The notes under the pieces: generated by a model | Told to the model about the DNA's origin: nothing | Seen by the model: the letters and a program-made list of their open reading frames with translations, nothing else | Databases searched by the model: none | Source: a virus | Lineage: Duplodnaviria > Caudoviricetes | Direction: 5' to 3' (one strand) | Length of the DNA stretch: 55,824 nucleotides | IMG/VR virus record: IMGVR_UViG_3300038429_000537 | Span: 1-55,824 of that record | Shown: positions 42,558 to 55,824 of the stretch, in pieces | Layout: every line of letters begins with the position of its first letter | How positions within the stretch are numbered: position 1 is the stretch's first letter | Made by a program: the position numbers and the translations under genes

Positions 42558-42748
42558 TCCGTCGGGCCGTCACCCACGCCTCGGACGCACTCTACGAGGT
42601 GCAGTTTCTCGAGGTCCTCGAGTCGGGCGGTGATGACCACCCGCAACACCTCGGGAAATCGCTCTAGGAGTTGACCCTGGATTTGACCGGGGGTTAGCGC
42701 ATTAGGCTCGGCCGCGCGAAGCACGTCGAGGATGTCAAGGTAGTTCAT
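42542..42748 (-). CDS. small winged-helix-like protein
   Basis: ILDVLR...LTPGQI...LEDLEKLHLVE pattern; ATGA overlap. Confidence 0.55.
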   Translation of the reverse strand: MNYLDILDVLRAAEPNALTPGQIQGQLLERFPEVLRVVITARLEDLEKLHLVECVRGVGDGPTEWRSL

Positions 42749-43362: not shown

Positions 43363-43368
43363 GGTCAA

Positions 43369-43664: not shown

Positions 43665-44005
43665 TCCCTCCCGTGGGCCAAACCGAGGCCCTGTAAAACG
43701 TAGGTGTCGTCACCACAGCGAAACGCCACTTGAAAGACTCGTCCCGTTCGTAGGTTGAACTGCCGGCAGAGCATGTAGTCACCGGGGGCTAACGGTGCTT
43801 GGGACGTCGGTCCTTCCAGTGGCTTGAGGCTGAAGAAAACCGTGGCCTTCGGCTCGACCACCTTCTGCCCGTTCTCCAGTCGCTGCACCTGCATCACGAC
43901 CTGCGGGCCGTATTCGGTTTGCTCCTGGCTGAGGGCGGCACCGACGAGGATGAGACCCAGTTCGACCGCGATGAACAACAACCCGAGTAAGATTTTACGC
44001 TTCAA
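43661..44005 (-). CDS. membrane-anchored/secreted hypothetical protein
   Basis: TTG start with AAGGAGG RBS; N-terminal hydrophobic segment. Confidence 0.6.
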   Translation of the reverse strand: MKRKILLGLLFIAVELGLILVGAALSQEQTEYGPQVVMQVQRLENGQKVVEPKATVFFSLKPLEGPTSQAPLAPGDYMLCRQFNLRTGRVFQVAFRCGDDTYVLQGLGLAHGRE

Positions 44006-44438
44006 AGTATTCCTCCTTACGTTCGACCAACTCAACGAGACGTTTAATTACCGGGTCAAAATAATCCAGGTAAGAGGCTGAATTGAAGAAGATGTTGAGG
44101 TTGAGGTCCTTTCGTCTTAGGCAGTTACTTATAACTTGCGGACTGTAAACTCCTAACTCCGATGAATCTTCATCAACCACGACATAAATACAGTGAACTT
44201 GTCGCTCCAACAACTGGCAAGTAGCGAGTTGTACCTTGTCAAAGTGCTTCCGCAGAGAGGACGGAGTCTCGTGAGCCTTTAACAGCTTAACCTCAACCCA
44301 AATGGTCTTGCGGTTATGGTTGACCACCAGGTCGGGAATGCCAGTGGTCATGTAATCCTGCAGCTTGAAAATCACAGCTGTCGGTAGCTGCTTTTGCAAC
44401 TCGGTCTTAATCTTCGTGACGGCGTCAGCTTCTCTCAC
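43995..44438 (-). CDS. VRR-NUC-like PD-(D/E)xK nuclease
   Basis: GIPDLVV...WVEVK...Q. Confidence 0.8.
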   Translation of the reverse strand: MREADAVTKIKTELQKQLPTAVIFKLQDYMTTGIPDLVVNHNRKTIWVEVKLLKAHETPSSLRKHFDKVQLATCQLLERQVHCIYVVVDEDSSELGVYSPQVISNCLRRKDLNLNIFFNSASYLDYFDPVIKRLVELVERKEEYFEA

Positions 44439-45319
44439 TTCTCCTCCAGTCCCGACGGGCCGATGTAGATGCGCGGGCTGCCGAAGTCTTGTTTGTCGGT
44501 CCAGTCCTTCGTGCCGGCCTTCTCGATCAGCGCGGTGATCTTGCCGATGGCCGCGTCGACCCCGTCGAGGTTGCTAAACACCTGAGCCTCGAGGATCGCC
44601 GGTTGCTTGATTGCGCCGAAGTTCAGGTTGCCGTGGTGAGAACCGATGATGTGGAGGACGGTTAACTTGAGTTCAGGGCTAAACTCAAGTTCATCCATCC
44701 ACTTCGCCACGCGCAACATGCCGATCGCGATGTGCCCGAGCAACTCTCCCGGGGTGGTGTATTCGATCGTAGTCCCGCAGCTCATCTCGTCCTGCTTGCC
44801 GATGTCATGCAGCACGGCACCCGTGATCAGCAGGTCGCGCCGCAGGATGGGGTATAGCTTCGCGACGGCATCAGCCAGCCGGCACAGGTTGACGGTGTGC
44901 TCCAACAGTCCGCCGAGGTAAGCGTGGTGCATCTGTTTAGCAGCCGGGGCACGCTTCCAGCGCTGATCGTCAATGGCCACCTCAAGAAGTTTCTTGAGGT
45001 GATCATTGGTAACGGAGGTCACAAACACTTTTAGCTCGTCATACAGCCCGTCTACGCTTTGTGTCGTCCGTGGCAGGAAGAGCTCGCCCGGGTCGTCCTT
45101 CGTTACCCGCGCGGCCTTGATCGTCAGCTGCGCCTCGCCACCGAACTCCGACTCCTCGGTCAGCGCGTCGATCACCTGGCCCGACTGGTACTCCGTCGTA
45201 CCCGGATCCCAGAAGACGGCTTTCCAGCTCTTCCCCCCGGGCTCGTACAACTGCATCCGTAGGTAGGCCTTACCTCGCCCGGTGGTTGCTTTCGTCACGC
45301 TGTTGATCAGGTATTTCAT
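44435..45319 (-). CDS. OB-fold plus HD-domain protein (YhaM/Cbf1-like 3'-5' exonuclease)
   Basis: GKAYL OB fold; PAAKQMHHAYLGGLLEHT, LHDIGK, LLGHI, SHHG. Confidence 0.9.
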   Translation of the reverse strand: MKYLINSVTKATTGRGKAYLRMQLYEPGGKSWKAVFWDPGTTEYQSGQVIDALTEESEFGGEAQLTIKAARVTKDDPGELFLPRTTQSVDGLYDELKVFVTSVTNDHLKKLLEVAIDDQRWKRAPAAKQMHHAYLGGLLEHTVNLCRLADAVAKLYPILRRDLLITGAVLHDIGKQDEMSCGTTIEYTTPGELLGHIAIGMLRVAKWMDELEFSPELKLTVLHIIGSHHGNLNFGAIKQPAILEAQVFSNLDGVDAAIGKITALIEKAGTKDWTDKQDFGSPRIYIGPSGLEEK

Positions 45320-45329
45320 TCGTCTCTCC

Positions 45330-47195
45330 TTAGTGCGCCTCGCTCCAATTTTTTCCCACGCCCGTCTTCCACATGATCGGTGCCAGTAGTTCGATCGTCT
45401 GCTCGTTCAGCAGTTGGTCCCAAGCCTTCAGCGCTTCAGCATCCGGCAAGCAGCCGTTAAACTCGTCGTGAATGGTGTTGCGGATGATCAACCCCAACCG
45501 CTTTCGCGCGCGGTAGGTCTCCAACAGCTTGATCTTCATCGCGTCGGCCGCGCCACCCTGGAGCACGGCGTTCAAGGCTGAATAGTGCCGAGTATCCTCG
45601 GCCGTGTAGCGTCGCCGCCGACCCATAAAGGTCCGCACGTAACCGATTCGTAGCGCCTGGTCCTCGGCTAGCTTTAACAGTCGCTTAGCCTCGGGAAACT
45701 CGCGATCGTACTGGTCGTTGATGCGCTTGCCTTCCGCTTCGGCTACCTTGCACATCCACGCAACCTTCTTATACCCACCGCCGTATGTTTTACAGAACGT
45801 CACGTTCTTCGCGAAATCGCGGATCAGGCCTGTCCACTCGACCATCAACCGGTGAAAGTCTACCCAAGGATCAGCCGCGTAAGCCTTCGCCAGCCGCGTC
45901 ATGCCCAACATCGCGGCGTGATGGGCCAAAAACCGCAGTTCGATCTGTGAGGCGTCGGCGCTGGCCCACACCCGGCCCGGTGGGGGAATGAAGAGTTCCC
46001 GCACGTCCCACCGCTGCAGTAAGAGAGGCTGCTTCTCTCGCTTACTGACCTGTTGAATGTTGATGCCGATGCCGTTCTTATCCTTGCTGGAGCTGTACCG
46101 CCCGGTGATCGTACCGTACTCGTCACCTCGGAGCTGGTGGAGCTGGTAGGTGATCTTGCCGTCGGGCGCGACCTTCTCCAGGTACGGATCGAGGTACTTC
46201 GCCTTCAACGATGCGAGTTGCCGACCCTCTAGAGCTAGCTGAACTGCTGGATTGTCGACAATCCAGCAGTTACCAGAATCCTGTCGTACCCAGTGTCCGG
46301 CGATCGGCTCCAGGGCCTCCTCGGCGAAGGATTCGTTGCCCGACTCGGTCGTGAAGCCCGTGTGTTGCAGCCCGAGGTGGCGGAACAGCTTCGCCATGTC
46401 GTTTGCCGAGGTGGGCTTTATTCGCAACCCGGTTAGTTCGTACAGCCGCATGACCCGTTGGTTGTACTCCTCGGTGACCTCAGCCCGCCACTTAATCAGT
46501 TTCGGTACGTCGAGGTAGGCACCGGAGCGCTGCATCGCTGCGGTGCAGTACACGAGGTTGTCCTCGAGGTCCTGAACGTCTCCGAGATCCTCGGCCGTGA
46601 TTTTGGGGGTGTACGACTCGTTGATCAACCACGTCAGCTCGGCGTCTTCGATGGCGACCGGCGCGGCTTGCGCTGCCGTCATCTGGTGAATCGTCGCGTG
46701 GTCCACGTCCTGCATCTCGTAGTTGAGTTCTTCCTGGGCCAAGAGACGCAGGTTGAGACGATAACGATGATCGTTGAGCAGCGCTGCCGCGTGGAAAACG
46801 TCGCGGAAGCTACAGTCCTGCTCCTCGAGGTCAACGCCAAATTTGAGAGCCGTGTCAATTTCGAATTTGGCGTTGGCCACGATGAGTTGCTTGCTTCGTA
46901 GTTCGCAGCGTAGCCACTCGCGTACGTTTGCTTCCGGGTAATTGCCCCCACCCGGGTGGCGGATCGGCACGTACTGCTTTCGGCCCGACGGCAACCGGAA
47001 GGACAGACCGACGAGGCTACGCTCTTCCATCCGCTTTTCAACTGTGGTCTCAGTGTCGAAGGCCAAACTTTCGACGTTGCCCAGCTCGGGCAATGCCGAA
47101 AGAGAGTTGCCTATTGCCGGCGCGACGACCGGGTTCACGTTGAATTGTAAATTTAGGGAATTACATACTTCGCAATTGAAAGATTTTTCAAACAT
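45330..47195 (-). CDS. polA: DNA polymerase, family A, with 3'-5' exonuclease
   Basis: Exo FDTET, NAKFE; TITGRYSS, motif A DASQIELR, motif B KNVTFCKTYG (Phe at the 762-equivalent), motif C IHDE. Confidence 0.95.
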   Translation of the reverse strand: MFEKSFNCEVCNSLNLQFNVNPVVAPAIGNSLSALPELGNVESLAFDTETTVEKRMEERSLVGLSFRLPSGRKQYVPIRHPGGGNYPEANVREWLRCELRSKQLIVANAKFEIDTALKFGVDLEEQDCSFRDVFHAAALLNDHRYRLNLRLLAQEELNYEMQDVDHATIHQMTAAQAAPVAIEDAELTWLINESYTPKITAEDLGDVQDLEDNLVYCTAAMQRSGAYLDVPKLIKWRAEVTEEYNQRVMRLYELTGLRIKPTSANDMAKLFRHLGLQHTGFTTESGNESFAEEALEPIAGHWVRQDSGNCWIVDNPAVQLALEGRQLASLKAKYLDPYLEKVAPDGKITYQLHQLRGDEYGTITGRYSSSKDKNGIGINIQQVSKREKQPLLLQRWDVRELFIPPPGRVWASADASQIELRFLAHHAAMLGMTRLAKAYAADPWVDFHRLMVEWTGLIRDFAKNVTFCKTYGGGYKKVAWMCKVAEAEGKRINDQYDREFPEAKRLLKLAEDQALRIGYVRTFMGRRRRYTAEDTRHYSALNAVLQGGAADAMKIKLLETYRARKRLGLIIRNTIHDEFNGCLPDAEALKAWDQLLNEQTIELLAPIMWKTGVGKNWSEAH

Positions 47196-47237
47196 TTATC
47201 TCCTTTGTTTTCAATGTTCCTTGTGAGGTTCGTGCGC

Positions 47238-47441
47238 TCAGTTTCTCGCAATTTTTATAGAATTTTTACGCCGTCGTGCGGCGGTTAATCGAACTTTTCT
47301 AAAAGCCCGAAATTGAATTTTATCTTTGACTATTCTAAAATCAACGATGTGAGTAAGTAAGCAATCGCAGCAACCCAGCACAAAACCTTTATTATTTTTC
47401 GGTTGAAGCCACTCACCATCTTTGGCTTTATAGATTCTCAT
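47238..47441 (-). CDS. small hypothetical protein (CCDC motif)
   Basis: GEWLQP...GCCDCLLTH; lies in AT-rich DNA. Confidence 0.65.
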   Translation of the reverse strand: MRIYKAKDGEWLQPKNNKGFVLGCCDCLLTHIVDFRIVKDKIQFRAFRKVRLTAARRRKNSIKIARN

Positions 47442-47611
47442 AAATCCATTTTTCTTCTTTCATGTCATCCTCATCTGGTTCTTTTGAAGTTAAGAAATTT
47501 TCAACATTAGCTAAATGAGAATCGATACTAATTGGTCCGGGAGCACAGAGTTTAATAAGAAACGGGCAAAACCACTTTGAATAATTGTAGTGTCACGCCA
47601 AAATCGAGTCT

Positions 47612-48487
47612 TCATAGCGTAGCTCCGATCAACAAGCGTCGAGCCTCGGACCAAGTCTTCGCGCCTAACACCGCGGCGTACACGCTCCAGGGATGGCGTA
47701 AGTATTCAGGTGGATACTTACCCGGGTTCTCGAGGTAGTCGGTCAAGCAGTACGGATTTTCGATTGACAGGTTCGGGTTCGGCATGTAGGGCAGCGACGG
47801 ACTCGTGATCCCAGGATAGTGTTGCGGGTCAGCCAACACGTTGTGTGCTTTTTCGAAGTCCGTCGCGTAGAGATGGCTGCTACCCAGGTTGAATTGAAGG
47901 TAACCCGGTGTCAGACCGAGCACGCCGGTTAGCCCATTTGCCAGTTGTGCGAAGGTGAAGCAGTCGTACGGCAGGCCCAGCCACACGTCCGATGACCTCA
48001 TCGTCACGATACAATGAAGCTGCATATCCCTACAAATAAATTGTAGGGATATGGTGCAGGGAATGTCCTTCGACGGCGCCGGACACGGCGTCCAGATCGT
48101 TGCTACCCCCTGGCGGGTAAATTCATCCTTCGCAATCGAGTCAACCACGTACTGCCACTGCTTGCTCAACCGCGGCCCGTAGGCGCCGGCTAACGTCTTC
48201 CCGTCGTCGGAGAACCGACCCATCTGCCCGTTGTACGGTGTCAGCGTGGCGAGGTCCTCGCGACCTAGGGCTATCCAGAGCCACTCGGCAACTAAAAATC
48301 TGTAGTTCAGATTCCTAAGGGGGTGGTAGAGGATGTTGTTTCTCAGATCCTGAACGCGCAGCGTGACCCCGGTGATCTCGTGGGTCAACAACCCCCGCGG
48401 CTGGGGCTTGAACTCGGGTTCGTTCAAGAGTTGCTCCAGAAGTTTCAACCACACCTCGTTGATCGACCGTCCTTCGATGGTCAGCAT
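47612..48487 (-). CDS. thymidylate synthase-family enzyme, probable dCMP hydroxymethylase/C5-modifier
   Basis: GAYGPR, KDIPCT, MRSSDVWLGLPYD (Asp at the Asn177-equivalent position), SSHLY. Confidence 0.85.
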   Translation of the reverse strand: MLTIEGRSINEVWLKLLEQLLNEPEFKPQPRGLLTHEITGVTLRVQDLRNNILYHPLRNLNYRFLVAEWLWIALGREDLATLTPYNGQMGRFSDDGKTLAGAYGPRLSKQWQYVVDSIAKDEFTRQGVATIWTPCPAPSKDIPCTISLQFICRDMQLHCIVTMRSSDVWLGLPYDCFTFAQLANGLTGVLGLTPGYLQFNLGSSHLYATDFEKAHNVLADPQHYPGITSPSLPYMPNPNLSIENPYCLTDYLENPGKYPPEYLRHPWSVYAAVLGAKTWSEARRLLIGATL

Positions 48488-49407
48488 CAGTTCGCACCTC
48501 TGAACCGCTGCAACAGTTCCACGTACTTGTCACGACTCTTGGACTTAAAGCGCTTAAAAAAAGCAGGATGTGGGATTTCTAACCGAGGTACTCCTAGATT
48601 GTGGCAACGATTGGAGGCTACCTTGCCTAGAGCGATAATAGTCTGTGCTGGGTTATTTCGGTAAATAGCTCGAATGTCGTTGTAAGTAGCATCCATCGTC
48701 ATGATGTTGGCAAAGGCCAGTTCCTCTTCCTGGTAGCCGGCCTCCCAGAGACACTCGTTTAAGAAGTGACTAGATTTCTGGTCGGAGTAAAACGCTAGGT
48801 CCGCACCGCAACTGTCCTTTCCGTCGGCGCGCTCACCGACGAGGAGGAACCTTGCACGGGGACTGCCGATCACGCCGGGCCAGCACTTTCGGCTGCACAA
48901 CACCTCAGGAAAAGGATGCTTTTCCTCGAGGTGCTGTGGTAACAGGCTGGTCCGGTAGTCGAAGTAGACAACGTCGCGCAGGGTGAAGAACTCGGCAAAA
49001 AGAGTACGAAAGTTGCTAGCAACCTTTCGTAATCTTTCCGTGTTGTCAACGTACTCCCGCGCTTGTCGCTTCTTCCAGTTCTCTTCGATGGCCGCGTCGT
49101 CCGTGTCACAGAACACGAACTTCGTACCAAGCGAAAACAGCAGGCGGTTCAGCAGTTTCATCTGCTCGACGGAAATCTTCGAGCCCGTTCGCATCACCGG
49201 CCCGTAGGCCATCTCACCGAGGTGCAGGCGATCGAACACGACATTCGCGCCTCGGGCGTTCAGAACACACTGGGTGTAGTACTCAAATATGTTGACACCC
49301 TCGGCCGGCACACCTTCGTGGCGGTACTCGAACCCGCGCTTCTCGAGGGCGCGCGCTAGCGTAGTTTTGCCCGTCCCGTCGGGACCTTCAACGACTATGC
49401 AGCTCAT
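48487..49407 (-). CDS. dNMP kinase fused to a uracil-DNA-glycosylase-like domain
   Basis: EGPDGTGKTT P-loop, FDRLHLGEMAYG; C-terminal LLVGE, AN, IIALGKVA, IPHPAF. Confidence 0.8.
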   Translation of the reverse strand: MSCIVVEGPDGTGKTTLARALEKRGFEYRHEGVPAEGVNIFEYYTQCVLNARGANVVFDRLHLGEMAYGPVMRTGSKISVEQMKLLNRLLFSLGTKFVFCDTDDAAIEENWKKRQAREYVDNTERLRKVASNFRTLFAEFFTLRDVVYFDYRTSLLPQHLEEKHPFPEVLCSRKCWPGVIGSPRARFLLVGERADGKDSCGADLAFYSDQKSSHFLNECLWEAGYQEEELAFANIMTMDATYNDIRAIYRNNPAQTIIALGKVASNRCHNLGVPRLEIPHPAFFKRFKSKSRDKYVELLQRFRGAN

Positions 49408-50582
49408 GACTTGGGCCTTTCTCGCCACTTTTCAGGCGTCCGTAGGTCAGCTGTTTCATTGGGTTGAATCGTGATGGTTTGTAATCGTCCTGACGTTACG
49501 TCATTCACGACGTCAACATCACAAGACTGGGGTCTTGCGATGCCAAAGACATTTGCCGAGATCTCCCGCAGTATCCACCGTGCCACCGGCGGACAGACAC
49601 CCTTCGAGAGCAATACAAAGGTCAGCCGCGGCTTGTGGTACCGGTAATCCGCCGGAAACCCCATGATTCGTTTGTAGTCCGCGTAGCCTAGCTGCCGCTT
49701 GCCTAACCACCACCAGCAGGGGCCTAGAAGGACTGGTGCCAGTCCGTTCGGGTTCAGCACGTGCAGCGCGCCGGAGAGGAAGTTGCCACCCACGATGTAA
49801 TCGTGCAGCTTGCCGAACGGCGGCCAACCCTTCGTATGCTCGTACCCGTGAGCCTCGGCTAAGATGTGGATTATGTTTCCGTAGGTAGTAGTGCCACTGA
49901 GAAGTTCCCGTAGGGACTTCTCTGTGTAACCCAATTCCTTAAGCAAATCTAATTGCTTCCCCCACCGCGTCGTGTGAGTGATGTCCAGCTCACCCTCCGC
50001 CGCGTCCACGCCTAACACGTCATTCAAGTACCTAACGTTGTGGTTTAGGACGAAGGTAAACTCTCGCTTTCGCCCCGGCTGCTGCTTCACGAAGATCGCC
50101 CAGAACCGCCGCCGCCACTGGGGCACGCCGAAACTGGCCGCGTTCTGGAGAACGCGGTACAAGTCGTAGCCGTGGGCGGCGGCGTAGAAGTCGTGCACGT
50201 GCCGGGCACCCTCCAGCGCGCCCGGGACGGACTCGATGGCTACGGCCTCGGGCCGGCGGGGCATCACGTGTTCCAGCAGCCGGGTGGTACAGGCGAAGGC
50301 CTCGGCTCCCGGGCCGCGTTTGCTGGCACTGCCTCGATTCTGGGAAGAGAAGGCCGCACAGGGCGGGTGCGCTATTACGATCGCGCCCTTCAAGTCCATG
50401 TCCAAATCCCAGTCCGCCAGTTCGGACCGATAGTTGAGGTGCGGGAAGTTCAAGCGTTGTGAATCCAGGCCAAAGTTGTGGTCCTCGCAACTCGCTAGGA
50501 TAGGGTGCTCCTCCTGCGTAGCAGCTAAGGTGATGCTGCCACCGTATGAATTGATGATCAATACAGGTGGCTTAGTTACCAT
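49404..50582 (-). CDS. atypical DNA cytosine-C5 methyltransferase-like enzyme
   Basis: Motif IV HPPCAAFS, VI IESV, VIII FGVPQWRRRFW, IX RIMGFP, X SKGVCPPVA; motif I degenerate (INSYGGS). Confidence 0.85.
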   Translation of the reverse strand: MVTKPPVLIINSYGGSITLAATQEEHPILASCEDHNFGLDSQRLNFPHLNYRSELADWDLDMDLKGAIVIAHPPCAAFSSQNRGSASKRGPGAEAFACTTRLLEHVMPRRPEAVAIESVPGALEGARHVHDFYAAAHGYDLYRVLQNAASFGVPQWRRRFWAIFVKQQPGRKREFTFVLNHNVRYLNDVLGVDAAEGELDITHTTRWGKQLDLLKELGYTEKSLRELLSGTTTYGNIIHILAEAHGYEHTKGWPPFGKLHDYIVGGNFLSGALHVLNPNGLAPVLLGPCWWWLGKRQLGYADYKRIMGFPADYRYHKPRLTFVLLSKGVCPPVARWILREISANVFGIARPQSCDVDVVNDVTSGRLQTITIQPNETADLRTPEKWRERPKS

Positions 50583-50986
50583 AGGCTGTTGAACGCCCCC
50601 TGGTTGGCTAGCCGTAGCATGCAAGCCTGGAACTTCGGACCGTGGTCGTCAAACTCCTGGCCCCACGTGGCGATGTGACACTGCTCGTGCAGCATGTTCA
50701 TCTTCAGGTGAGTGTCGGCTTGGTTGTACTTCGGGTTGAACTCAGTGATAAACCGTCCGTCGTGCATTCGTGTGATTGCCATGTTTGAACGACCTTGCAC
50801 GTCAACGGCTGGTCCGTAGCGCAAAATGACGTCCTTCGGTAACTCGTCGCCGAACCACCACCCGTTGTATTGGTCGTAGATGGTCTGAAGGTAATCATCC
50901 CGGTCCTTCGGTAGCAACCGCTCAACGAGGGCAGAATAAACCGCGGCCAATAAAATTATGAGTACGATCTTCTGCCAGGTCTTCAT
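50576..50986 (-). CDS. SprT-like zinc metalloprotease with an N-terminal TM anchor
   Basis: LHEQCH, HGPKFQ; hydrophobic N-terminus. Confidence 0.8.
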   Translation of the reverse strand: MKTWQKIVLIILLAAVYSALVERLLPKDRDDYLQTIYDQYNGWWFGDELPKDVILRYGPAVDVQGRSNMAITRMHDGRFITEFNPKYNQADTHLKMNMLHEQCHIATWGQEFDDHGPKFQACMLRLANQGAFNSLW

Positions 50987-51354
50987 GTCTTGGTGAACCT
51001 CGCGCGGACGGCGGCCTTCTGCTCGGGCGTGAGCTGCCGCTTGGTTCGGATTTTAGCCAAACGGAGAATTAGTTTCACTAATTCTGCGTTTTCCGGGTCA
51101 AAGCTGAGATAGCCATCTACCTCGCAGGTGATGTAGGGCTTCGCGCCCTTCTCAATTAACTTTTTCCGCACGTTGTTCCACTTGCCCACGGTGAGGAAGT
51201 TGAAGTAAACGTAAAATTCTCCGTCCGCCTCGAAGACGTTGTGGTTGTCCTCGAGGTGCTTGGCCCACTTCACTCGCCCGGCGACGATGGGATCGTCACA
51301 ACTATCTTTCCGAATCTTAACCTTATACCGTTCGGCAAACTCTGTTAAAGTCAT
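50983..51354 (-). CDS. hypothetical protein
   Basis: ATG 51354 overlapping the upstream TGA; GGAG RBS. Confidence 0.7.
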   Translation of the reverse strand: MTLTEFAERYKVKIRKDSCDDPIVAGRVKWAKHLEDNHNVFEADGEFYVYFNFLTVGKWNNVRKKLIEKGAKPYITCEVDGYLSFDPENAELVKLILRLAKIRTKRQLTPEQKAAVRARFTKT

Positions 51355-51602
51355 TGGATCTCCGTGACCGGGATGTGGACGATCGCGCCGGCAGCAACGG
51401 ACTTCTCGTGCATCTCGCACAACAGTTGAAACAACCGGGCATCTCCGGCGTCGACGCAGTTGCCGAAGTTGACGACGAAGGACGGAACGGCGGCGAACAT
51501 GTAGCCCGCCACGATCACCTTGTGACGGTTCGCCACCCGCAGCAGCATCTCGGCGGCTGACTGAACCTCAAGCGGAATGCCGTGATTTTCTAGAACGTCC
51601 AC
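51351..51602 (-). CDS. hypothetical protein
   Basis: GTG start with GGAGG RBS. Confidence 0.6.
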   Translation of the reverse strand: MDVLENHGIPLEVQSAAEMLLRVANRHKVIVAGYMFAAVPSFVVNFGNCVDAGDARLFQLLCEMHEKSVAAGAIVHIPVTEIQ

Positions 51603-52834
51603 TGATAACCTCCCCACTCACCCTTACCCGCTAGGGCTTGCTCCAACGGATCGAAGTTCGGCGTGCTCTTCTCGCGCAGCTCCTCGACGTAGCCCTTGGC
51701 TTCCGACCACGGAATTTCACCCCAGTCTTCGAACTGGCTGATGCGAGCGGGGTGATTATGACAGAGATATCTATTATCTCTGTCATAGTGAAACCTCCCG
51801 AATGAAACGGGCCGTGGTAGCGCACCCGCCACGACGTACTCCCGCAACTTGCCGGTGGCGAAGCCCGCCTCCAGAGCGATCATGGGCCCCTGCGAAGCCC
51901 GTTGTAAGATGCCTTGGACCTCATCGTGTTTCACGCAGCCCTTCCAGTGGGGGTTGTTACGGACCACCACGTGGCCCGTAGCCACCTGGTGTTGGTCAGC
52001 CTCAACCGGCGACGCAAAGTTTTTCGTCGGTTGGCACGTCGCGCAGTAGCACCACCCGTGGCCGTAAACCTCGTAGGCCGATCTACATCGGCCTAAAACC
52101 GCGTCCCACGTCTTGGCTCGCTCCGGCCCGTATACCCGCAGGTCGTGAAAGTGGCCGTGGGCGATCACCACCACTCCCTGCCGAGGTTCGTCAAGCGGTG
52201 CTAGGGGCATCCCGAAAGTCCACCAATTCTCGCAGGCGGCGTAGACCTCTTCGCGCCGCATCTTCCGCTCGCGGGTCTCCCAGTAATTCACTCTGCTACG
52301 TTGCGAGAGGACCGCCGCTGGCAGCGTGTACGGCCAGTAGTGGTTCTCGTGTTCCCGGGGCAGGTTGCGCGGGTCGTTGATGATTACTACCCTGCGAAGA
52401 TGTAAATCTTCGCATGCTTTAAGACAGGGTAGGTTGGTCGTGATCGCCGTCCGTAACGGACTCGTGCCCCAGGGATTGCACGGGTTCGAGTGCGAGGGCT
52501 GCTGGCCCGCGACGTTGACGACTACGTCGGGGCACCATTGCTTTAACTCCGTTAAAGCAATGTTGATCCTGAAGACGTACTCCTCAGCCTCGGTCGTCTC
52601 GTACGGCGTGCCGGCGAAATCAACGCCAAAGCTGGGTATGCCCGAGAAAGTTCCGGCACCACAGAGAGTTTTTCCATTCAATCCGTAGGGCGCGGGGCCG
52701 AAGAGACACACGTCGTGCCCCGACTGTTTTAGGTAGCGCAGCACGCCTAGAGCGTCTTGATTTCCGGCAGTTGGAGACGCACCGTGATTATCTTCATAAA
52801 GTACTGTGCCCGTTCTACACAGCGCAATTCTCAT
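51590..52834 (-). CDS. GT-B fold glycosyltransferase, putative DNA base glycosyltransferase
   Basis: MRIAL...GHDVCLFG, PDVVVN, NDPR, EVYGHGW, ATGKLREYV resemble phage beta-glucosyltransferase-type enzymes; located in the DNA-modification cluster. Confidence 0.6.
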   Translation of the reverse strand: MRIALCRTGTVLYEDNHGASPTAGNQDALGVLRYLKQSGHDVCLFGPAPYGLNGKTLCGAGTFSGIPSFGVDFAGTPYETTEAEEYVFRINIALTELKQWCPDVVVNVAGQQPSHSNPCNPWGTSPLRTAITTNLPCLKACEDLHLRRVVIINDPRNLPREHENHYWPYTLPAAVLSQRSRVNYWETRERKMRREEVYAACENWWTFGMPLAPLDEPRQGVVVIAHGHFHDLRVYGPERAKTWDAVLGRCRSAYEVYGHGWCYCATCQPTKNFASPVEADQHQVATGHVVVRNNPHWKGCVKHDEVQGILQRASQGPMIALEAGFATGKLREYVVAGALPRPVSFGRFHYDRDNRYLCHNHPARISQFEDWGEIPWSEAKGYVEELREKSTPNFDPLEQALAGKGEWGGYQWTF

Positions 52835-53406
52835 GAAATCTCCTGGCAAAGCTTACAGTTAGGATTCTTAATTCCTTTGTTAAGATGAAATCGTTTGTGA
52901 TTTCCCGCTAAGGAAGCTTTTCTTTGATGCTCTTTATCTTGGTGAGCTTTGATTAAAACTTTTCTACGCGCCTCGTCAAATGATTTTGAAGTAGTGGCTG
53001 TTATATGCCCACCTTTTGCCCTAGTTTCATAAGTTGTAAACGGGATGCTAGCCTTTCCAGATCGTACCTTATCCTCATGCGAAGCATTCTTCCCGCCGAT
53101 TCGTCCTGCGGCAGCACGATCACATCCACCTGCTGGGTCGCGGTTTAAACCTCCTAGCTTAACTCGAGTGCATAAAAAGTCAATGAAAAAATTTTCACGC
53201 TCATACAGTTCTTGGACATCCTCATAGAAAAAATTTTCTATCTCTCGTGGAAAAGGAGGGTTTTCGAATGAGCGTAGCCACTTAGCAATTCTTGTTTTTG
53301 CTTTTAAGTGGCAATGATGCCTGCGTACTAAGTTATTTGTGGACCCGACATACACCGGACGGCCGCTATTCGGATCGACATACGCATATATTGTTCCTAG
53401 AAGCAC
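52831..53406 (-). CDS. GIY-YIG free-standing endonuclease
   Basis: TIYAYVDP...YVGSTNNLVRR..H, RE, LN; AT-rich; C-terminal HKRFH...NPNCKLC. Confidence 0.8.
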   Translation of the reverse strand: MLLGTIYAYVDPNSGRPVYVGSTNNLVRRHHCHLKAKTRIAKWLRSFENPPFPREIENFFYEDVQELYERENFFIDFLCTRVKLGGLNRDPAGGCDRAAAGRIGGKNASHEDKVRSGKASIPFTTYETRAKGGHITATTSKSFDEARRKVLIKAHQDKEHQRKASLAGNHKRFHLNKGIKNPNCKLCQEIS

Positions 53407-53771
53407 TAGACGATCCCTTCAGTGTTCTCAAAACCTTTGTCCCGCTGCACGTTGAAAGAAAGGGCCATCGGCGTGTTCGGGTCGTAAGGCTTCGTGTCAT
53501 TAATCAAGTAACGTCGCCCACTAGTGAGCCCCATGACGAGTTGGTGGTAGTACAAGCCTGCAGCCTCGAGCTGCGCCACGACCTTCGCGCGGATGCACTC
53601 GGGCCGGCCGGTGGTGATGATGATCAGCGCGCCGGAGTTCCACCACCGAACCATTTTCTCTGGCACACCGGGTAGTACGTGCATCGGGTCATCCCACGGT
53701 GGAGCCTGGTGTTTGATCAACGTTCCATCTAAGTCGACGAAGATCGTCGCGTGGTGGTGACTCTGCATCAT
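53406..53771 (-). CDS. HAD-superfamily phosphatase (capless)
   Basis: FVDLDGTL, TTGR, YLIND. Confidence 0.88.
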   Translation of the reverse strand: MMQSHHHATIFVDLDGTLIKHQAPPWDDPMHVLPGVPEKMVRWWNSGALIIITTGRPECIRAKVVAQLEAAGLYYHQLVMGLTSGRRYLINDTKPYDPNTPMALSFNVQRDKGFENTEGIV

Positions 53772-54460
53772 GGTTTCAGTTCCTCGAGAACGACGAACCC
53801 CGACGCGATGTCCAACTGCGGCCAGTGAGGCAAGAGACGTACCCAGTGAGTCACGAGGAAAGCCCAATCCGTCGCGTCGGCCCAGTCGGGCCACGTATTG
53901 GGACGCTCCCATGGATAAGGCACTTTGATACTTAAAAATTCAACTTGCGGACCCCAACGTTCCTCCCACCGCATGACCACACTTTGGAGCAACTTCCCTC
54001 GGTCCAGGGCCGGGGTGACCATTTCCCGAGGATAGCCTGGGTCGATCAACACCACGTTACCGGTCGGCTCGATGACGACGTTCTCCAGGGTCAGGTCAGC
54101 GTGCACCAACCGCGCCCGTGGCAGCTCGACCGCTTGGATGACGTTCAACGCGTCGCGCACAACCTCCACAGCCTCAGGTTTCAACCCCGCTGTTCTCTCG
54201 GCCACATACTCGCAGTAACGGAGCTTTTCGGCCATCGTCAGCCGACCGTGTTGGTACACGTCCCACACCAACTCCATCGTCCGCAAGATCTCTGGCACGT
54301 CCGCCACTGTGGCTTGCCGGCCCGTCACGTAGCGATAAAGGTAGTGCTCACCGTACTGGCGCACGAACCGAGGAATGTATTGCCACGGAGCGTGAATGTA
54401 GAAGTCCGGTATCCGACCCGGCTTGATTACCACGTCAGTATCGATTATCTGTCCTTGCAC
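53768..54460 (-). CDS. APH/choline-kinase-like phosphotransferase
   Basis: VVIK, HADLTLENV, LIDP; GTG start with GGAGG RBS. Confidence 0.8.
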   Translation of the reverse strand: MQGQIIDTDVVIKPGRIPDFYIHAPWQYIPRFVRQYGEHYLYRYVTGRQATVADVPEILRTMELVWDVYQHGRLTMAEKLRYCEYVAERTAGLKPEAVEVVRDALNVIQAVELPRARLVHADLTLENVVIEPTGNVVLIDPGYPREMVTPALDRGKLLQSVVMRWEERWGPQVEFLSIKVPYPWERPNTWPDWADATDWAFLVTHWVRLLPHWPQLDIASGFVVLEELKP

Positions 54461-55059
54461 CCGTTCCTCCAGTAGGCGGCGTAGGTCTCCGGCACGCCGA
54501 CGTCCCACCACCCGTCACCGGGTCGGATCACTGGGGTCAGTCCCGAGAAGTGATCCCAACCCTCACTCGAAATCGGTTCGTTGCAATCCTCGGTCAGAAA
54601 CCACGGTGTCGACAGCGCGTGCGTACCCGGTCCGGTGCGCGTTAGGTGGTTGTGCTTGCCCAACCGCACGAGGTGCGGCATCCGCCACGCCGGTACTTGC
54701 CGAACCACGGCCCAACAGTAACTCGAGTCAGTAGGTAGGAGCTCGCCTTGCGGGTAGACGTTGTCGGCCATCACAATCAAGGATGATTGGCCATCGCGAT
54801 TGACTAAATTCAACGCGTCGCCTACTCCGGTCGGCTCGGGTTGGTAAATAAAATCGAGGTCAATTTTGTCCCCGTAGACCTTGTCAATCACGTCCACGAT
54901 CACTGAGCTTGGTGGGGTGACCACCGCGACGTGGTCGACTTCGTGCCGGAGCAGGTAGTCCATCCCGGAGAAGCAGACGGGCCGCAAGTCGCGCATCGGC
55001 AGCAGCGGCTTGTTGGGCAACCGCGTGGCGGCGCCCCCAGCGAGTAAGATGCCGATCAT
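54445..55059 (-). CDS. sugar-phosphate nucleotidyltransferase
   Basis: GILLAGGAATRLPNKPLL, QPEPTGVGDAL, ADN, WWDVG. Confidence 0.9.
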   Translation of the reverse strand: MIGILLAGGAATRLPNKPLLPMRDLRPVCFSGMDYLLRHEVDHVAVVTPPSSVIVDVIDKVYGDKIDLDFIYQPEPTGVGDALNLVNRDGQSSLIVMADNVYPQGELLPTDSSYCWAVVRQVPAWRMPHLVRLGKHNHLTRTGPGTHALSTPWFLTEDCNEPISSEGWDHFSGLTPVIRPGDGWWDVGVPETYAAYWRNGCKDR

Positions 55060-55068
55060 TAGGTCTCC

Positions 55069-55167
55069 TTAGCAATTCAGATTTGGTGGACCATCGGTCC
55101 GGCAAATAGAAAAATAACCGATGGCAGCAAAGGCTAGAAGCAGTAAACCAGGTAACAAGTTGATCAT
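55069..55167 (-). CDS. 32 aa hydrophobic peptide
   Basis: MINLLPGLLLLAFAAIGYFSIC..., read by hand; fills the gap between two genes. Confidence 0.4.
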   Translation of the reverse strand: MINLLPGLLLLAFAAIGYFSICRTDGPPNLNC

Positions 55168-55168
55168 G

Positions 55169-55824
55169 TTAATATCTTTCCGCTTCTATGCGGGTAAGGA
55201 AAAAATGAATACCGCCCCCGCATTCCTGCCAGCGGTCTTCATTCCATTTGTCACATTTCACCGTTTCGCCCTTGCGGTACTTCGTGTTTCGGTCGTATCG
55301 CGAAATGCCTTCTTCCGCACCGATTACTTGGAGCACCAATGCTTCACTGGCGCGGCACTTGCGACCAGAAGCATTAGAGCGCTGTGCCTTGGCAGGAATT
55401 CGGAGACGGACTATTACGCCGTTCAAACACTTCTTCCAACCTTGAAAGCCTCCAGTTTCGGGCACGATGGTGGTTTGCGCAAGAGAGTATTCGGCTTCCT
55501 TGGCATCTTTGAGGTTCGCCCCGCTGAGGTTCGCCCCGCTGAGGTACGCCCCGCTGAGGTTCGCCCCGCCGAGGTTCGTCCCGCCGAGGTTCGCCCCGCC
55601 GAGGTTCGCCCTGCTGAGGTTCGCCCCGCCGAGGTCCGCCCCGCTGAGGTTCGCCCCGCTGAGGTACGCCCCGTCGAGGTACGCCTCGCTGAGGTTCGCC
55701 TCGCTGAGGTTCGTCCCGCTGAGGTACGCCCCGCTGAGGTTCGCCCCGCCGAGGTTCGCCCAGCTGAGGTACGCCCCGCTGAGGTCCGCCCCGCTGAGGT
55801 TACCCACGATCAGGATCGCCCAGT
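55169..55824 (-). CDS. pentapeptide-repeat protein with a C-terminal phage domain (5' end probably outside the window)
   Basis: About 20 xLxGA-type repeats; C-terminal GWKK...KCRAS...CGGGIHFF. Confidence 0.9.
55502..55801. repeat. 15 bp tandem repeat (about 20 units, consensus gaggttcgccccgct) encoding the pentapeptide repeats
   Basis: Visible directly in the DNA. Confidence 0.95.

What the first reader, a model, noticed from the sequence alone, without database searches (positions are those of the whole stretch)
47612..55059. Candidate cytosine hypermodification pathway with its own activated-donor synthesis
Seen on one strand next to polA: nucleotidyltransferase, APH-like kinase, HAD phosphatase, (endonuclease), GT-B, atypical C5-MTase, dNMP kinase-UDG fusion and TS homolog. 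Known: T-even phages make 5hm-dCMP with a TS-family enzyme, phosphorylate it with a phage kinase and glycosylate the DNA with GT-B enzymes; some carry extra genes for non-glucose donors. Inference: the kinase, nucleotidyltransferase and phosphatase make an unusual NDP-sugar or NDP-polyol that the GT transfers to modified C. Having this with a family A polymerase, a podovirus-type virion and an MTase-fold enzyme is a combination I do not recognise.
Basis: partly seen in the sequence, partly recalled or inferred. Interest (0 to 1): 0.87.

Follow-up and report, generated by a model that had tools for sequence, protein, structure and literature searches.

The report
Phage operon for sugar-decorated hydroxymethylcytosine DNA
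An uncultured phage carries one operon that most likely makes 5-hydroxymethylcytosine DNA and decorates it with a sugar whose activated donor the phage builds itself, a new variant of a strategy already shown in other phages.

Summary
Window 47612-55059, minus strand, is a tightly packed gene row. It encodes a nucleotidyltransferase, an APH-like kinase, a small HAD phosphatase, a GIY-YIG endonuclease, a GT-B glycosyltransferase (seen by fold only), three small ORFs, a C5-methyltransferase-fold enzyme, a kinase fused to a family-4 UDG-like domain, and a thymidylate-synthase homolog. DNA polymerase A lies downstream.

The synthase homolog has Asp at E. coli ThyA positions 143, 169 and 177. This is the published signature of 5hm-dCMP synthases, not of 5-hydroxy-dCMP synthases (D169N) or true thymidylate synthases.

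APH, HAD and GT lie next to one another in 4 of 5 lineages that carry this GT. A synthase homolog is held for 4 of the 5; the fifth is known only from 2.5-6 kb contigs. Flanking genes are otherwise unrelated.

Close precedents exist: RB69/DLP3 arabinosyl-5-hydroxycytosine (AfhE/AfhF-type donor route) and a reconstituted HAD-APH + cytidylyltransferase + GT-B cluster that gives heptosyl-5hmC.

Unexplained extras:
- a large family of atypical C5-MTase-like enzymes (HPPC, ESV, Lys/Arg probably at HhaI N304) linked to these synthase modules;
- the kinase-UDG fusion;
- no dCTPase found in the sequence held.

The sugar is unknown. Nothing here is experimental.

The parts
54445..55059 (-). Sugar-1-phosphate nucleotidyltransferase (204 aa), first gene of the donor module
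   Evidence: PF00483 1.8e-4, 21.6 bits against cut-off 21.2. RmlA/AglF-type NCBIfam hits 5e-4 to 2e-3. Homologs lie in the same gene run as APH, HAD and GT in G001 (48% id) and G002 (31% id), and about 0.8 kb upstream of APH in L051. No detectable similarity to RB69 gp53.
53768..54511 (-). APH/RIO-fold small-molecule kinase; the predicted anomeric sugar kinase. Start probably near 54460.
   Evidence: APH PF01636 2.5e-3, below cut-off. Atlas neighbours are viral APH clusters, score 0.98. BLASTP to the RB69 gp52 kinase part gives 4e-4 over the catalytic loop. Conserved next to HAD in G001, G002 and L049-L051.
53406..53771 (-). Small HAD phosphatase, about 121 aa, with a DLDGT motif. The ORF is open up to 53912.
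   Evidence: phrog_1238 at 7e-7, the family that holds RB69 gp51 (1.9e-42). Sub-threshold HAD Pfam and NCBIfam hits. 35-40% identical homologs sit immediately upstream of the GT in G001 and L048-L051, and one gene (NT) away in G002.
52831..53406 (-). GIY-YIG homing-type endonuclease, inserted between HAD and GT; not part of the pathway
   Evidence: GIY-YIG 3e-4; group I intron endonuclease 6.4e-5. No match to it at E <= 1e-2 or 1e-4 in G001, G002 or L048-L051, where the GT directly follows HAD (G001, L048-L051) or NT (G002).
51590..52834 (-). GT-B glycosyltransferase of an unnamed family; the predicted DNA 5hmC glycosyltransferase. The ORF is open up to 52849.
   Evidence: No family hit. AF2 pLDDT 89.5. 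Foldseek PDB: OtsA, MurG, BshA, WaaG; T4 beta-GT at rank 26. BFVD top hit 'DNA beta-glucosyltransferase' 3.4e-16, TMq 0.62. Family size: 16 proteins by word search, 186 representatives by full HMM search.
51351..51617 (-). 88-aa ORF, unknown
   Evidence: No family hit. No homolog in G001 or G002.
50983..51420 (-). 145-aa ORF, unknown
   Evidence: No family hit. No homolog in G001 or G002.
50576..50986 (-). SprT-like zinc metalloprotease-fold protein (136 aa)
   Evidence: PF10263 1.2e-5, 25.5 bits against cut-off 25.6. A SprT-like ORF also lies upstream of the donor genes in G002.
49404..50582 (-). Atypical C5-cytosine methyltransferase-fold enzyme. The ORF is open up to 50624.
   Evidence: PF00145 2.3e-11. 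AF2 pLDDT 91.3; HhaI, HaeIII and CmoX folds. Family motifs: INSY(A/G)GS, ED, NFP, HPPC, ESV, QWRxR, GFPxDY, S(R/K)GVCPP. Homologs lie directly upstream of the TS homolog in G001 and G002.
48487..49428 (-). YorR/Tmk-like nucleotide kinase (about aa 1-170) fused to a family-4 UDG-like domain (about aa 185-305)
   Evidence: phrog_761 9e-15, the family of RB69 gp45. Profile hits: YorR 2.4e-12 and T. thermophilus UDG 1ui0 4.2e-5. The same fusion is in phage AXL3 gp29 and PW916 and in 7 IMG/VR loci.
47612..48487 (-). Thymidylate-synthase-family enzyme; predicted 5-hydroxymethyl-dCMP synthase
   Evidence: PF00303 6.1e-22. Best solved relative is MilA CMP 5-hydroxymethylase, 2.3e-26. Catalytic Cys in KDIPC; Asp at ThyA positions 143, 169 and 177.
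45330..47195 (-). Family A DNA polymerase, downstream on the same strand (context)
   Evidence: phrog_17 3.7e-78. polA also lies beside the TS/kinase genes in G001, G002 and G003.

Best explanation
This is a phage operon for glycosylated 5-hydroxymethylcytosine DNA that makes its own sugar donor.

Step 1 (inferred from signature residues): the TS-family enzyme converts dCMP to 5-hydroxymethyl-dCMP.

Step 2 (inferred): the YorR/Tmk-like kinase domain phosphorylates it on the way to 5hm-dCTP. The neighbouring family A polymerase then incorporates it. The fused family-4 UDG-like domain probably removes uracil-type bases that arise from the disturbed pyrimidine pool or from deamination.

Step 3 (inferred by analogy with the AfhE/AfhF route and the heptose route): the APH-like kinase phosphorylates C1 of a host sugar phosphate. 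The small HAD phosphatase removes the distal phosphate. The nucleotidyltransferase turns the sugar-1-phosphate into an NDP-sugar. No phage isomerase was found, so the starting sugar phosphate must come from the host. A pentose, hexose or heptose all remain possible.

Step 4 (inferred): the GT-B enzyme transfers the sugar to the hydroxymethyl group of 5hmC in DNA after replication. This shields the DNA from host nucleases.

The C5-MTase-fold enzyme is a conserved companion of the TS/kinase module. It most likely puts a second C5 group (methyl or carboxymethyl) on cytosines that escaped replacement. The GIY-YIG gene is a selfish insertion.
For: Shown by sequence:
- TS fold, with MilA CMP hydroxymethylase as the best solved relative.
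- Asp at ThyA 143, 169 and 177 in the window and in G001, G002 and G003. RB69 gp48 has E143, N169 and D177.
- The published rules are N177D = dCMP, L143D/E = hydroxymethyl, D169N = 5-hydroxy (PMC13326640, sections 24 and 28).

Module conservation:
- APH, HAD and GT are adjacent in the window, G001, G002 and the L048-L051 lineage, that is 4 of 5 lineages with this GT; NT lies in the same run or nearby wherever the contig reaches that far. The G003 fragment is the exception.
- A TS homolog is present in 3 of 3 related viral records searched.
- G001 and G002, both complete, add a MazG/PRA-PH NTPase and a dCMP deaminase. G001 also has ThyX, so its TS homolog is not needed for dTMP.

Homology links to a proven system: HAD in phrog_1238 (= RB69 gp51) and the kinase in phrog_761 (= RB69 gp45).

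GT: GT-B fold; nearest viral models include a protein labelled DNA beta-glucosyltransferase.

Precedents:
- The UDP-arabinose route of RB69/DLP3/HY126 (PMC13326640, section 27).
- HAD-APH + cytidylyltransferase + GT-B gives heptosyl-5hmC (10.1101/2023.12.21.572611, section 7).

A cultured relative: phage AXL3 carries the closest cultured TS homolog and the kinase-UDG fusion. Its DNA is cut by only 2 of 37 restriction enzymes, both with A/T-only sites (PMC7504290 passages).
Against: - No dCTPase/MazG and no dCMP deaminase in the window, nor in the 7 kb beyond its right end in a 97%-identical contig. Full replacement of C is therefore unproven here. About 5 kb of the genome may still be unseen (CheckV 82%).
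- The APH, HAD, UDG, Tmk and GIY-YIG hits are below Pfam cut-offs.
- NT and HAD show no pairwise similarity to RB69 gp53 and gp51. The kinase shows only 4e-4.
- No fused NT-kinase or HAD-kinase relative was found among longer proteins (weak evidence).
- The GT's acceptor cannot be read from its fold. T4 beta-GT is only rank 26 in PDB.
- In G001 the GT module lies about 13.6 kb from the TS module.
- A C5-methyltransferase has no substrate if every C is already 5-substituted.
- The L143 rule is a correlation taken from one paper.
- No experimental data exist for this phage.
Confidence: 0.62

Rival explanations
1. RB69/DLP3-type system: the TS homolog is a flavin-dependent 5-hydroxy-dCMP synthase, and the sugar (arabinose) is attached directly to 5-hydroxycytosine.
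For: The gene set is of the same kind (TS homolog, Tmk-like kinase, NT, APH kinase, HAD, GT-B). HAD and kinase share PHROG families with RB69 gp51 and gp45. The best fold and sequence relative, MilA, is the same as for RB69 gp48 and DLP3 gp80 (PMC13326640, Table 1).
Against: The diagnostic D169N is absent. The window and all relatives keep Asp169, whereas RB69 has Asn. No arabinose-5-phosphate isomerase (SIS) in 0 of 4 records. Identity to RB69 gp48 is only 20%.
Confidence: 0.07
2. The NT-APH-HAD-GT module glycosylates something other than DNA (virion proteins, host envelope glycans or a small molecule). The TS/kinase/MTase genes are a separate nucleotide module that merely lies nearby.
For: GT-B folds are generic. 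The best PDB hits are OtsA, MurG, BshA and WaaG. In G001 the two modules are about 13.6 kb apart. 0 of 26 loci with the MTase/TS module carry this GT, so the modules can exist apart. About 65% of phage GT contigs have no base-modification neighbour (10.1101/2023.12.21.572611, section 9).
Against: A D177-type TS homolog is held for 4 of 5 GT lineages: the window/L047, G001, G002 and G003/L052. None is held for L048-L051, which are only 2.5-6 kb contigs. Here the module sits inside the early DNA-metabolism operon with overlapping genes. The top viral fold neighbours include an annotated DNA beta-glucosyltransferase. There is a direct experimental precedent for this gene set acting on 5hmC.
Confidence: 0.13
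3. XP12-like or ordinary pyrimidine metabolism: the TS homolog makes 5-methyl-dCMP (or dTMP). The DNA carries 5mC, reinforced by the C5-methyltransferase, and is not glycosylated at cytosine.
For: A C5-MTase is a conserved neighbour of the TS homolog: 16 of 26 loci. The N177D change alone turns a TS into a dCMP methylase (Liu & Santi 1992, seen only as a reference in PMC8670742). The XP12 precedent is recalled.
Against: Asp at position 143, where methyl-forming enzymes have a bulky hydrophobic residue (PMC13326640, section 24), in all 22 D177 homologs inspected. MilA, a hydroxymethylase, is the best solved relative. A conserved GT plus donor module would have no acceptor.
Confidence: 0.08
4. 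Post-replicative route: the C5-MTase-fold enzyme installs the primary handle on DNA (5mC or 5-carboxymethyl-C) and later enzymes elaborate that handle. The TS homolog serves only nucleotide supply.
For: C5-MTase fold with all catalytic motifs. Lys/Arg aligns with HhaI N304 and CmoX R350 in 2 of 3 alignments. MT-dependent 5hmC glycosylation clusters exist (Pyle preprint abstract).
Against: No TET/JBP oxidase in 0 of 4 records. No CmoA in 0 of 4 records, with the S-B43 control positive. No amide ligase was noticed. A glycosyltransferase needs a hydroxyl, which 5mC and 5cxmC lack.
Confidence: 0.05

Closest known systems
T-even phage pathway (T4 gp42 dCMP hydroxymethylase, dNMP kinase, alpha/beta-glucosyltransferases); recalled, and as summarised in PMC13326640 section 24
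   Same: Pre-replicative synthesis of 5hm-dCMP by a TS-family enzyme with Asp at positions 177 and 143, a phage kinase, and post-replicative transfer of sugar to 5hmC by a GT-B enzyme.
   Different: T4 uses host UDP-glucose and makes no donor of its own. It has a B-family polymerase, a gp1-type dNMP kinase and a dCTPase. It has no C5-MTase and no UDG fusion. The window's GT belongs to a different, unnamed sequence family, and no dCTPase was found.
Arabinosyl-5-hydroxycytosine clusters of RB69, DLP3 and HY126 (AfhE/AfhF route; PMC13326640)
   Same: TS homolog nearest to MilA; Tmk/YorR-like kinase (phrog_761); small HAD phosphatase (phrog_1238); MurU/RmlA-type nucleotidyltransferase plus APH-like kinase; GT-B transferases; position next to the DNA polymerase; same gene order NT, kinase, HAD.
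   Different: Asp169 is retained, so hydroxymethyl and not hydroxyl is predicted. No arabinose-5-P isomerase. NT and kinase are separate genes, and the NT is not detectably similar in sequence. One GT instead of two or three. Extra C5-MTase-like enzyme and UDG fusion.
Contig-53 cluster of Pyle et al. (bioRxiv 10.1101/2023.12.21.572611, section 7): HAD-APH bifunctional enzyme + cytidylyltransferase + T4-betaGT-like GT-B, giving mono- and di-heptosyl-5hmC
   Same: The same four activities (HAD, APH kinase, nucleotidyltransferase, GT-B) coupled to 5hmC in phage DNA. A cytosine MTase is present in the cluster.
   Different: There the 5hmC is made after replication by MT plus a 5mYOX/TET enzyme, and HAD-APH are fused. 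Here there is no TET, 5hmC is predicted to come from the TS route, and all genes are separate. Sequence relatedness could not be tested because the contig sequences are in supplements I could not see.
CmoX, DNA cytosine C5-carboxymethyltransferase of Synechococcus phage S-B43 (PMC12783734; PDB 8YF3)
   Same: C5-MTase fold (Foldseek 7.1e-15; hhalign probability 97.5%). A basic residue aligns with CmoX R350 / HhaI N304 in 2 of 3 alignments.
   Different: HPPC instead of the SPPC motif used to define CmoX. Lys, not Arg, in the window's copy. No phage CmoA and no amide ligase. It travels with a TS homolog instead.
Nucleotide module of Stenotrophomonas phage AXL3 and Pseudoxanthomonas phage PW916 (PMC7504290)
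   Same: TS homolog (38% id, D143/D169/D177) adjacent to a kinase-UDG fusion (25% id over 91%). AXL3 DNA resists enzymes with G/C in their sites.
   Different: These phages have MazG, dCMP deaminase and an annotated methyltransferase whose class I did not check. Within the 10-15 kb of each that I fetched, the window's GT, NT, APH and HAD found no match.

Membership tests
[quoted passage not shown] | TS fold with a catalytic Cys equivalent to ThyA C146 | tested here: met
   PF00303 78.5 bits. The Cys in KDIPC aligns with the PC(H/T) Cys of TS and MilA.
[quoted passage not shown] | Asp at ThyA N177 (cytosine rather than uracil substrate) | tested here: met
   PYD aligned to PFN of three TS structures, and to Asp of MilA and RB69 gp48.
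[quoted passage not shown] | Acidic residue at ThyA L143 (water access, so hydroxymethyl and not methyl) | tested here: met
   Asp three residues before the Cys, as in MilA and in all 22 D177 homologs inspected. HMMER alignments to true TS place a one-residue gap here, so the equivalence rests on the MilA and RB69 alignments.
[quoted passage not shown] | Product is 5hm-dCMP | not testable with these tools
   Needs an enzyme assay or LC-MS.
5-hydroxy-dCMP synthase (RB69 gp48 type) | Asn at ThyA D169 (D169N) | tested here: not met
   MRSSD in the window against MRSQN in RB69 gp48.
AfhE/AfhF-type NDP-sugar route (RB69/DLP3/HY126) | Small HAD phosphatase of the gp51/AfhF family | tested here: met
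   phrog_1238 at 7e-7 (window) and 1.3e-7 (G001); RB69 gp51 scores 1.9e-42 in the same family. Pairwise BLASTP finds nothing. The match is weak.
AfhE/AfhF-type NDP-sugar route (RB69/DLP3/HY126) | Bifunctional nucleotidyltransferase + APH-like kinase (phrog_4098) | tested here: not met
   Both activities are present, but as two genes. Neither hits phrog_4098. Kinase 4e-4, NT no similarity. No longer fused relative was found.
AfhE/AfhF-type NDP-sugar route (RB69/DLP3/HY126) | Phage arabinose-5-phosphate isomerase (SIS domain) | tested here: not met
   PF01380 in 0 of 4 records, controls 14 of 14. None in the 7-kb extension.
DNA 5hmC glycosyltransferase (GT-B) | GT-B two-Rossmann fold | tested here: met
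   AF2 pLDDT 89.5. 461 PDB matches at E <= 0.001; every listed hit is a GT-B enzyme.
DNA 5hmC glycosylransferase (GT-B) | Transfers sugar to 5hmC in DNA | not testable with these tools
   Only context and an automatically named viral fold neighbour.
T4-type complete replacement of dC | Phage dCTPase (gp56/MazG type) that removes dCTP | tested here: not met
   PF01503 in 0 matches in the window, but present in G001 and G002. None in the L047 extension. The record is 82% complete.
DNA C5-cytosine methyltransferase (PF00145) | Motif IV Pro-Cys, motif VI Glu, motif VIII RxR, C5-MTase fold | tested here: met
   HPPC, ESV and QWRRR are conserved in 25 aligned members. Pfam 44.1 bits. HhaI fold 2.7e-15. 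Motif VI is ESV, not ENV, and motif I is SY(A/G)GS, not FxGxG.
CmoX-type carboxymethyltransferase | SPPC motif plus Arg at HhaI N304 (CmoX R350), as used in PMC12783734 section 13 | tested here: inconclusive
   The motif is HPPC, not SPPC. Lys (window) or Arg (most members) aligns with N304/R350 by HMMER and hhalign, but one residue off by MAFFT.
CmoX-type carboxymethyltransferase | Cx-SAM synthase CmoA encoded alongside (4257 CmoA among 5615 CmoX contigs in the paper) | tested here: not met
   TIGR00740 in 0 of 4 records; the S-B43 control scores 2.5e-34.
MT/5mYOX-dependent 5hmC glycosylation clusters | TET/JBP-type dioxygenase | tested here: not met
   PF12851 in 0 of 4 records.
Family-4 uracil-DNA glycosylase superfamily | GE-x-x-G motif A, Phe and Asn of the base pocket, HP motif B | tested here: met
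   VGERADG, LAF, NI and PHPAFF in the window. Across 9 fusion proteins G198, F213, N241, H287 and P288 are invariant, and the motif-A Glu is present in 8 of 9. Profile hits 1ui0 at 4.2e-5 and many type-4 UDGs at about 0.02. Activity and substrate are untested.

The most novel reading that the evidence does not exclude
The C5-methyltransferase-fold enzyme belongs to a large, undescribed family. Its motifs are HPPC, ESV, and Lys/Arg probably at the HhaI-N304 / CmoX-R350 position. The family travels with 5hm-dCMP-synthase + kinase(-UDG) + MazG + polA modules: a synthase homolog is present in 16 of 26 viral loci. On this reading it is not an ordinary methylase. It either installs carboxymethyl groups using host Cx-SAM, or it acts on 5-substituted cytosine through covalent C6 catalysis. 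These phages would then carry two chemically different C5-cytosine modifications in one genome, glycosyl-5hmC plus a second mark. The kinase-UDG fusion would police the resulting pool and deamination errors.
Probability: 0.2. Interest if true: 0.75.

Novelty: new variant of a known kind. Interest (0 to 1): 0.45.

Why it matters
Hypermodified phage DNA resists restriction enzymes and CRISPR nucleases, and each new sugar-base chemistry has given tools for epigenomics. This operon joins the pre-replicative TS route to 5hmC with a self-contained NDP-sugar module. That module was previously shown only with 5-hydroxycytosine (arabinose) or with TET-made 5hmC (heptose). The operon also uses a glycosyltransferase family that has no Pfam, PHROG or NCBIfam model.

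If confirmed, it would:
- add a donor/acceptor combination to the catalogue;
- give a compact gene set to reconstitute (four donor and transfer genes plus the synthase and kinase);
- point to a widespread, uncharacterised C5-MTase-like family and a kinase-UDG fusion tied to cytosine-replacing phages.

It does not open a new category of biology.

Tried and rejected
- Thymidine hypermodification (5-HMUDK kinase + aGPT-pyrophosphorylase). This was my first guess for the kinase-UDG fusion, from recall. I dropped it because the TS homolog has Asp177, no aGPT-Pplase Pfam family was hit, and the C-domain matches family-4 UDGs.
- Megablast of the 9.7-kb region against phage records: no match.
- GT protein against cultured phages: no match. 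Single-sequence scan of IMG/VR: nothing. Only the alignment-based scan worked.
- phmmer of the MTase against PDB: 0 hits. The profile search was needed.
- Pairwise BLASTP of NT and HAD against RB69 gp53 and gp51: no meaningful alignment.
- Search for longer, fused relatives of the APH kinase: none (weak evidence, as the tool itself says).
- Promoter and terminator scan of 44000-55824: 5 promoter-like sites against 4.1 expected, and 3 terminator-like sites against 12 expected. It says nothing about operon limits.
- Searches for SIS isomerase, CmoA and TET in the window and three relatives: all negative.
- The identity of the sugar could not be narrowed. The NT resembles RmlA-type enzymes only over its first 100 residues.
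- Literature searches for a description of the MTase-TS association found none. That is two searches of open-access text only. The supplementary tables of Pyle et al. and Lee et al., which list contigs and tested IMG/VR enzymes, were not seen and may hold this contig or its relatives.
- Complex prediction, the look-up of sequencing runs and read laying were not used. No binding claim is made, and reads cannot show base chemistry here.

Full report
**What the window is.** The window is a whole IMG/VR virus record of 55,824 bp. It is linear, and CheckV rates it 82% complete. The plus strand carries the genes for the large terminase, portal, major head protein and tail fibres. The minus strand from about 55.8 kb down to about 41.7 kb carries DNA-metabolism genes. 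I did not test the virion type systematically.

**Checking the observation.** Between 55059 and 47612 the minus strand holds eleven ORFs with overlapping or abutting ends. In order of transcription they are as follows.
- Nucleotidyltransferase: PF00483, 21.6 bits, just over the cut-off.
- APH/RIO-like kinase: below cut-off. Its Atlas neighbours are viral APH clusters, score 0.98.
- A small HAD protein with a DLDGT motif: sub-threshold in Pfam, phrog_1238 at 5e-7.
- GIY-YIG endonuclease.
- A 414-419 aa protein with no Pfam, PHROG or NCBIfam hit.
- ORFs of 88 and 145 aa.
- A SprT-like protein.
- A C5-MTase: PF00145, 44 bits.
- A P-loop kinase fused to a UDG-like domain.
- A thymidylate synthase homolog: PF00303, 78.5 bits.
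- After a 67-aa ORF, polA.

I built an alignment of the 16 database relatives of the unassigned protein and folded it. The model has pLDDT 89.5 and is a GT-B glycosyltransferase: OtsA, MurG, BshA and WaaG are the top matches, and T4 beta-glucosyltransferase is rank 26.

**Which base.** The best solved relative of the TS homolog is MilA, a CMP 5-hydroxymethylase (2.3e-26). True thymidylate synthases score 1e-11 to 6e-15. Lee et al. (PMC13326640; I read sections 24, 25, 27, 28 and 29) give three diagnostic positions in E. coli ThyA numbering:
- N177D selects dCMP;
- L143D/E goes with hydroxymethyl rather than methyl products;
- D169N marks the flavin-dependent 5-hydroxy-dCMP synthases of RB69, DLP3 and others.

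The window's protein reads KDIPC ... MRSSD ... PYD, that is D143, D169 and D177. RB69 gp48, fetched for comparison, reads E143, N169 and D177. The predicted product is therefore 5-hydroxymethyl-dCMP, not 5-hydroxy-dCMP, 5-methyl-dCMP or dTMP. The assignment of position 143 rests on the ungapped MilA and RB69 alignments. HMMER alignments to true TS place a one-residue gap there.

**Relatives.** An alignment-based scan of IMG/VR found three contigs with the GT:
- G001: 61.5 kb, terminal repeats, complete;
- G002: 48.3 kb, terminal repeats, complete;
- G003: an 18-kb fragment.

A metagenome scan added a 97.3%-identical variant of the window (L047), four short contigs of another lineage (L048-L051), and a duplicate of G003.

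APH, HAD and GT lie side by side in the window, G001, G002 and L048-L051, with NT in the same run or nearby (seen in L051 only among L048-L051). The order differs in G002: APH, HAD, NT, GT. No match to the GIY-YIG gene was found in G001, G002 or L048-L051, so here it is an insertion.

All three viral relatives carry a TS homolog over the Pfam cut-off (3 of 3) with D143/D169/D177. In G001 and G002 it is flanked by a C5-MTase-like gene upstream and a Tmk-like kinase and polA downstream. G001 and G002 also encode a MazG/PRA-PH pyrophosphatase and a dCMP deaminase, and G001 encodes ThyX. This is the pool-remodelling set that MetaGPA found on cytosine-modified contigs (PMC8670742, passages only).

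Apart from these genes and polA, nothing in the 20-kb pieces of G001 and G002 matches any window ORF. The module is therefore conserved across otherwise unrelated genomes.

**The donor route.** RB69, DLP3 and HY126 make UDP-arabinose in four steps: an arabinose-5-P isomerase, a bifunctional nucleotidyltransferase/APH-like kinase (AfhE) that first phosphorylates C1, a small HAD phosphatase (AfhF) that removes the 5-phosphate, and the nucleotidyltransferase domain (PMC13326640, section 27).

The window has the same three activities in the same order (NT, kinase, HAD), but as separate genes.
- The HAD falls in phrog_1238, where RB69 gp51 scores 1.9e-42 (window 7e-7, G001 1.3e-7).
- The kinase domain of the fusion protein falls in phrog_761 with RB69 gp45. 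Its profile hits YorR at 2.4e-12, the same PDB neighbour reported for DLP3 gp78 (Table 1 of the paper).
- The APH kinase matches RB69 gp52 only around the catalytic loop (4e-4).
- The NT does not match gp53 at all.

A second precedent is closer in logic. Pyle et al. (bioRxiv 10.1101/2023.12.21.572611; sections 7 and 9 read) reconstituted a phage cluster with a HAD-APH bifunctional enzyme, a cytidylyltransferase and a T4-betaGT-like GT-B. All three were needed to put one or two heptoses on 5hmC.

No SIS-type isomerase is present in the window, G001, G002 or G003 (0 of 4), nor in the 7 kb upstream in L047. The sugar phosphate must therefore come from the host, and I cannot say which sugar it is.

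**The glycosyltransferase.** Its family is small:
- 16 proteins by the word-indexed search;
- 186 representatives at E <= 0.001 and 127 at E <= 1e-30 among 1.84 billion by full HMM search.

In the viral structure library the two best matches (3.4e-16 and 4.8e-16, TMq about 0.6) stand eight orders of magnitude ahead of the rest. One of them bears the automatic name DNA beta-glucosyltransferase. That is a lead, not proof of the acceptor.

**The C5-MTase-fold enzyme.** It has at least 259 relatives, nearly all annotated PF00145, but no close relative in cultured phages: 16 distant records, none covering 80% of the query. The AF2 model (pLDDT 91.3) is a C5-MTase. HhaI, HaeIII and the carboxymethyltransferase CmoX 8YF3 all score near 1e-15.

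The family keeps the catalytic Pro-Cys, Glu and RxR, but with unusual motifs: SY(A/G)GS, HPPC, ESV and S(R/K)GVCPP.

Of 26 IMG/VR loci carrying this family:
- 16 have a TS homolog;
- 17 have the Tmk-like kinase;
- 13 have MazG;
- 17 have polA;
- 0 have the GT, APH or HAD within the held flanks.

The 14 TS homologs that my motif pattern caught are all D143/D169/D177. The MTase therefore belongs to the nucleotide-replacement module rather than to the sugar module.

In CmoX an Arg replaces HhaI Asn304 and binds the carboxymethyl group of Cx-SAM, and the engineered M.MpeI N374K does the same (PMC12783734, sections 10 and 14). A profile-to-HhaI alignment and an hhalign comparison with CmoX (probability 97.5%) both put the family's conserved Lys/Arg at that position. 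A MAFFT alignment puts it one residue off.

There is no CmoA in any of the four records, while the S-B43 control is positive. The motif is also HPPC rather than the SPPC used to define CmoX. I therefore leave the transferred group open: methyl or carboxymethyl on residual unmodified C is the plain reading. Why a C5 transferase accompanies a pathway that already occupies C5 is unexplained.

**The kinase-UDG fusion.** The same architecture occurs in phages AXL3 and PW916, next to their D177-type TS homologs, and in seven of the MTase-linked loci. Across the nine aligned fusion proteins, the motif-A Gly and the pocket Phe and Asn are invariant, as are the His-Pro of motif B. The motif-A Glu is present in 8 of the 9. 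The profile hits the Thermus family-4 UDG 1ui0 at 4.2e-5.

AXL3 DNA was cut by only 2 of 37 restriction enzymes, both with A/T-only sites (PMC7504290, passages). That fits a cytosine-replacing role for this TS/kinase module in a cultured phage.

**Weak points.**
- The window, and the extra 7 kb seen in L047, have no MazG-type dCTPase and no dCMP deaminase. Full replacement of C is not assured here.
- Several family assignments are below curated cut-offs.
- Acceptor, donor and products are all inferred.

**Verdict.** It is a new variant of a known kind, not a new kind of system.

Supplementary files were not seen.

Noticed in passing
L047:1-7073 (beyond the window's right end; L047 7074-15127 = window 55800-47723 at 97.3% identity): A metagenome contig of a close variant extends the genome by about 7 kb. 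It encodes a helicase C-terminal piece, Pam3 gp33-like and gp34-like proteins, a 757-aa DUF5906 primase/helicase-type protein, a GntR-like protein, a 221-aa unknown and the pentapeptide/DUF5758 protein. The Pam3-type families and the pentapeptide repeats hint at a cyanobacterial host (the host link is recalled, not tested).
   Followed up: partly
L019-L044 (26 IMG/VR loci): A large family of atypical C5-MTase-like enzymes (HPPC, ESV, S(R/K)GVCPP) sits with a D143/D169/D177 TS homolog, a Tmk(-UDG) kinase, MazG and polA. A TS homolog is present in 16 of 26 loci. Two literature searches found no description of this association.
   Followed up: partly
L006 (phage AXL3) and L007 (phage PW916): These cultured Xanthomonadaceae phages annotate the D177-type TS homolog as thymidylate synthase or dUMP hydroxymethylase, and the kinase-UDG fusion as thymidylate kinase or as nothing. 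The signature residues, and AXL3's resistance to enzymes with G/C sites, suggest a modified cytosine instead.
   Followed up: partly
window 55169-55822 (-): Pentapeptide-repeat protein with a DUF5758 C-terminal domain (7.5e-35 and 5.6e-28), immediately upstream of the operon. The repeat also gives long open frames on the opposite strand.
   Followed up: partly
window 1008-1874 (+): Histidine phosphatase superfamily branch 1 protein (PF00300, 4.9e-20) at the far end of the record. Its substrate is unknown, and a link to sugar or nucleotide metabolism was not examined.
   Followed up: no
window 42745-43368 (-): Serine recombinase / DNA invertase (phrog_95 4.6e-54, phrog_125 8.9e-51) inside the early region.
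   Followed up: no
window 44435-45319 (-): A 294-aa protein with an HD phosphohydrolase domain (PF01966, 1.8e-9), just downstream of polA. Whether it could hydrolyse dCTP in place of the missing MazG was not tested.
   Followed up: no
L015:12440-13420 (G001) and L048-L050: ThyX homologs sit beside the modification genes. In L048-L050 the ThyX match begins about 170-380 bp after the GT match ends. This fits phages that need a separate route to dTMP.
   Followed up: no
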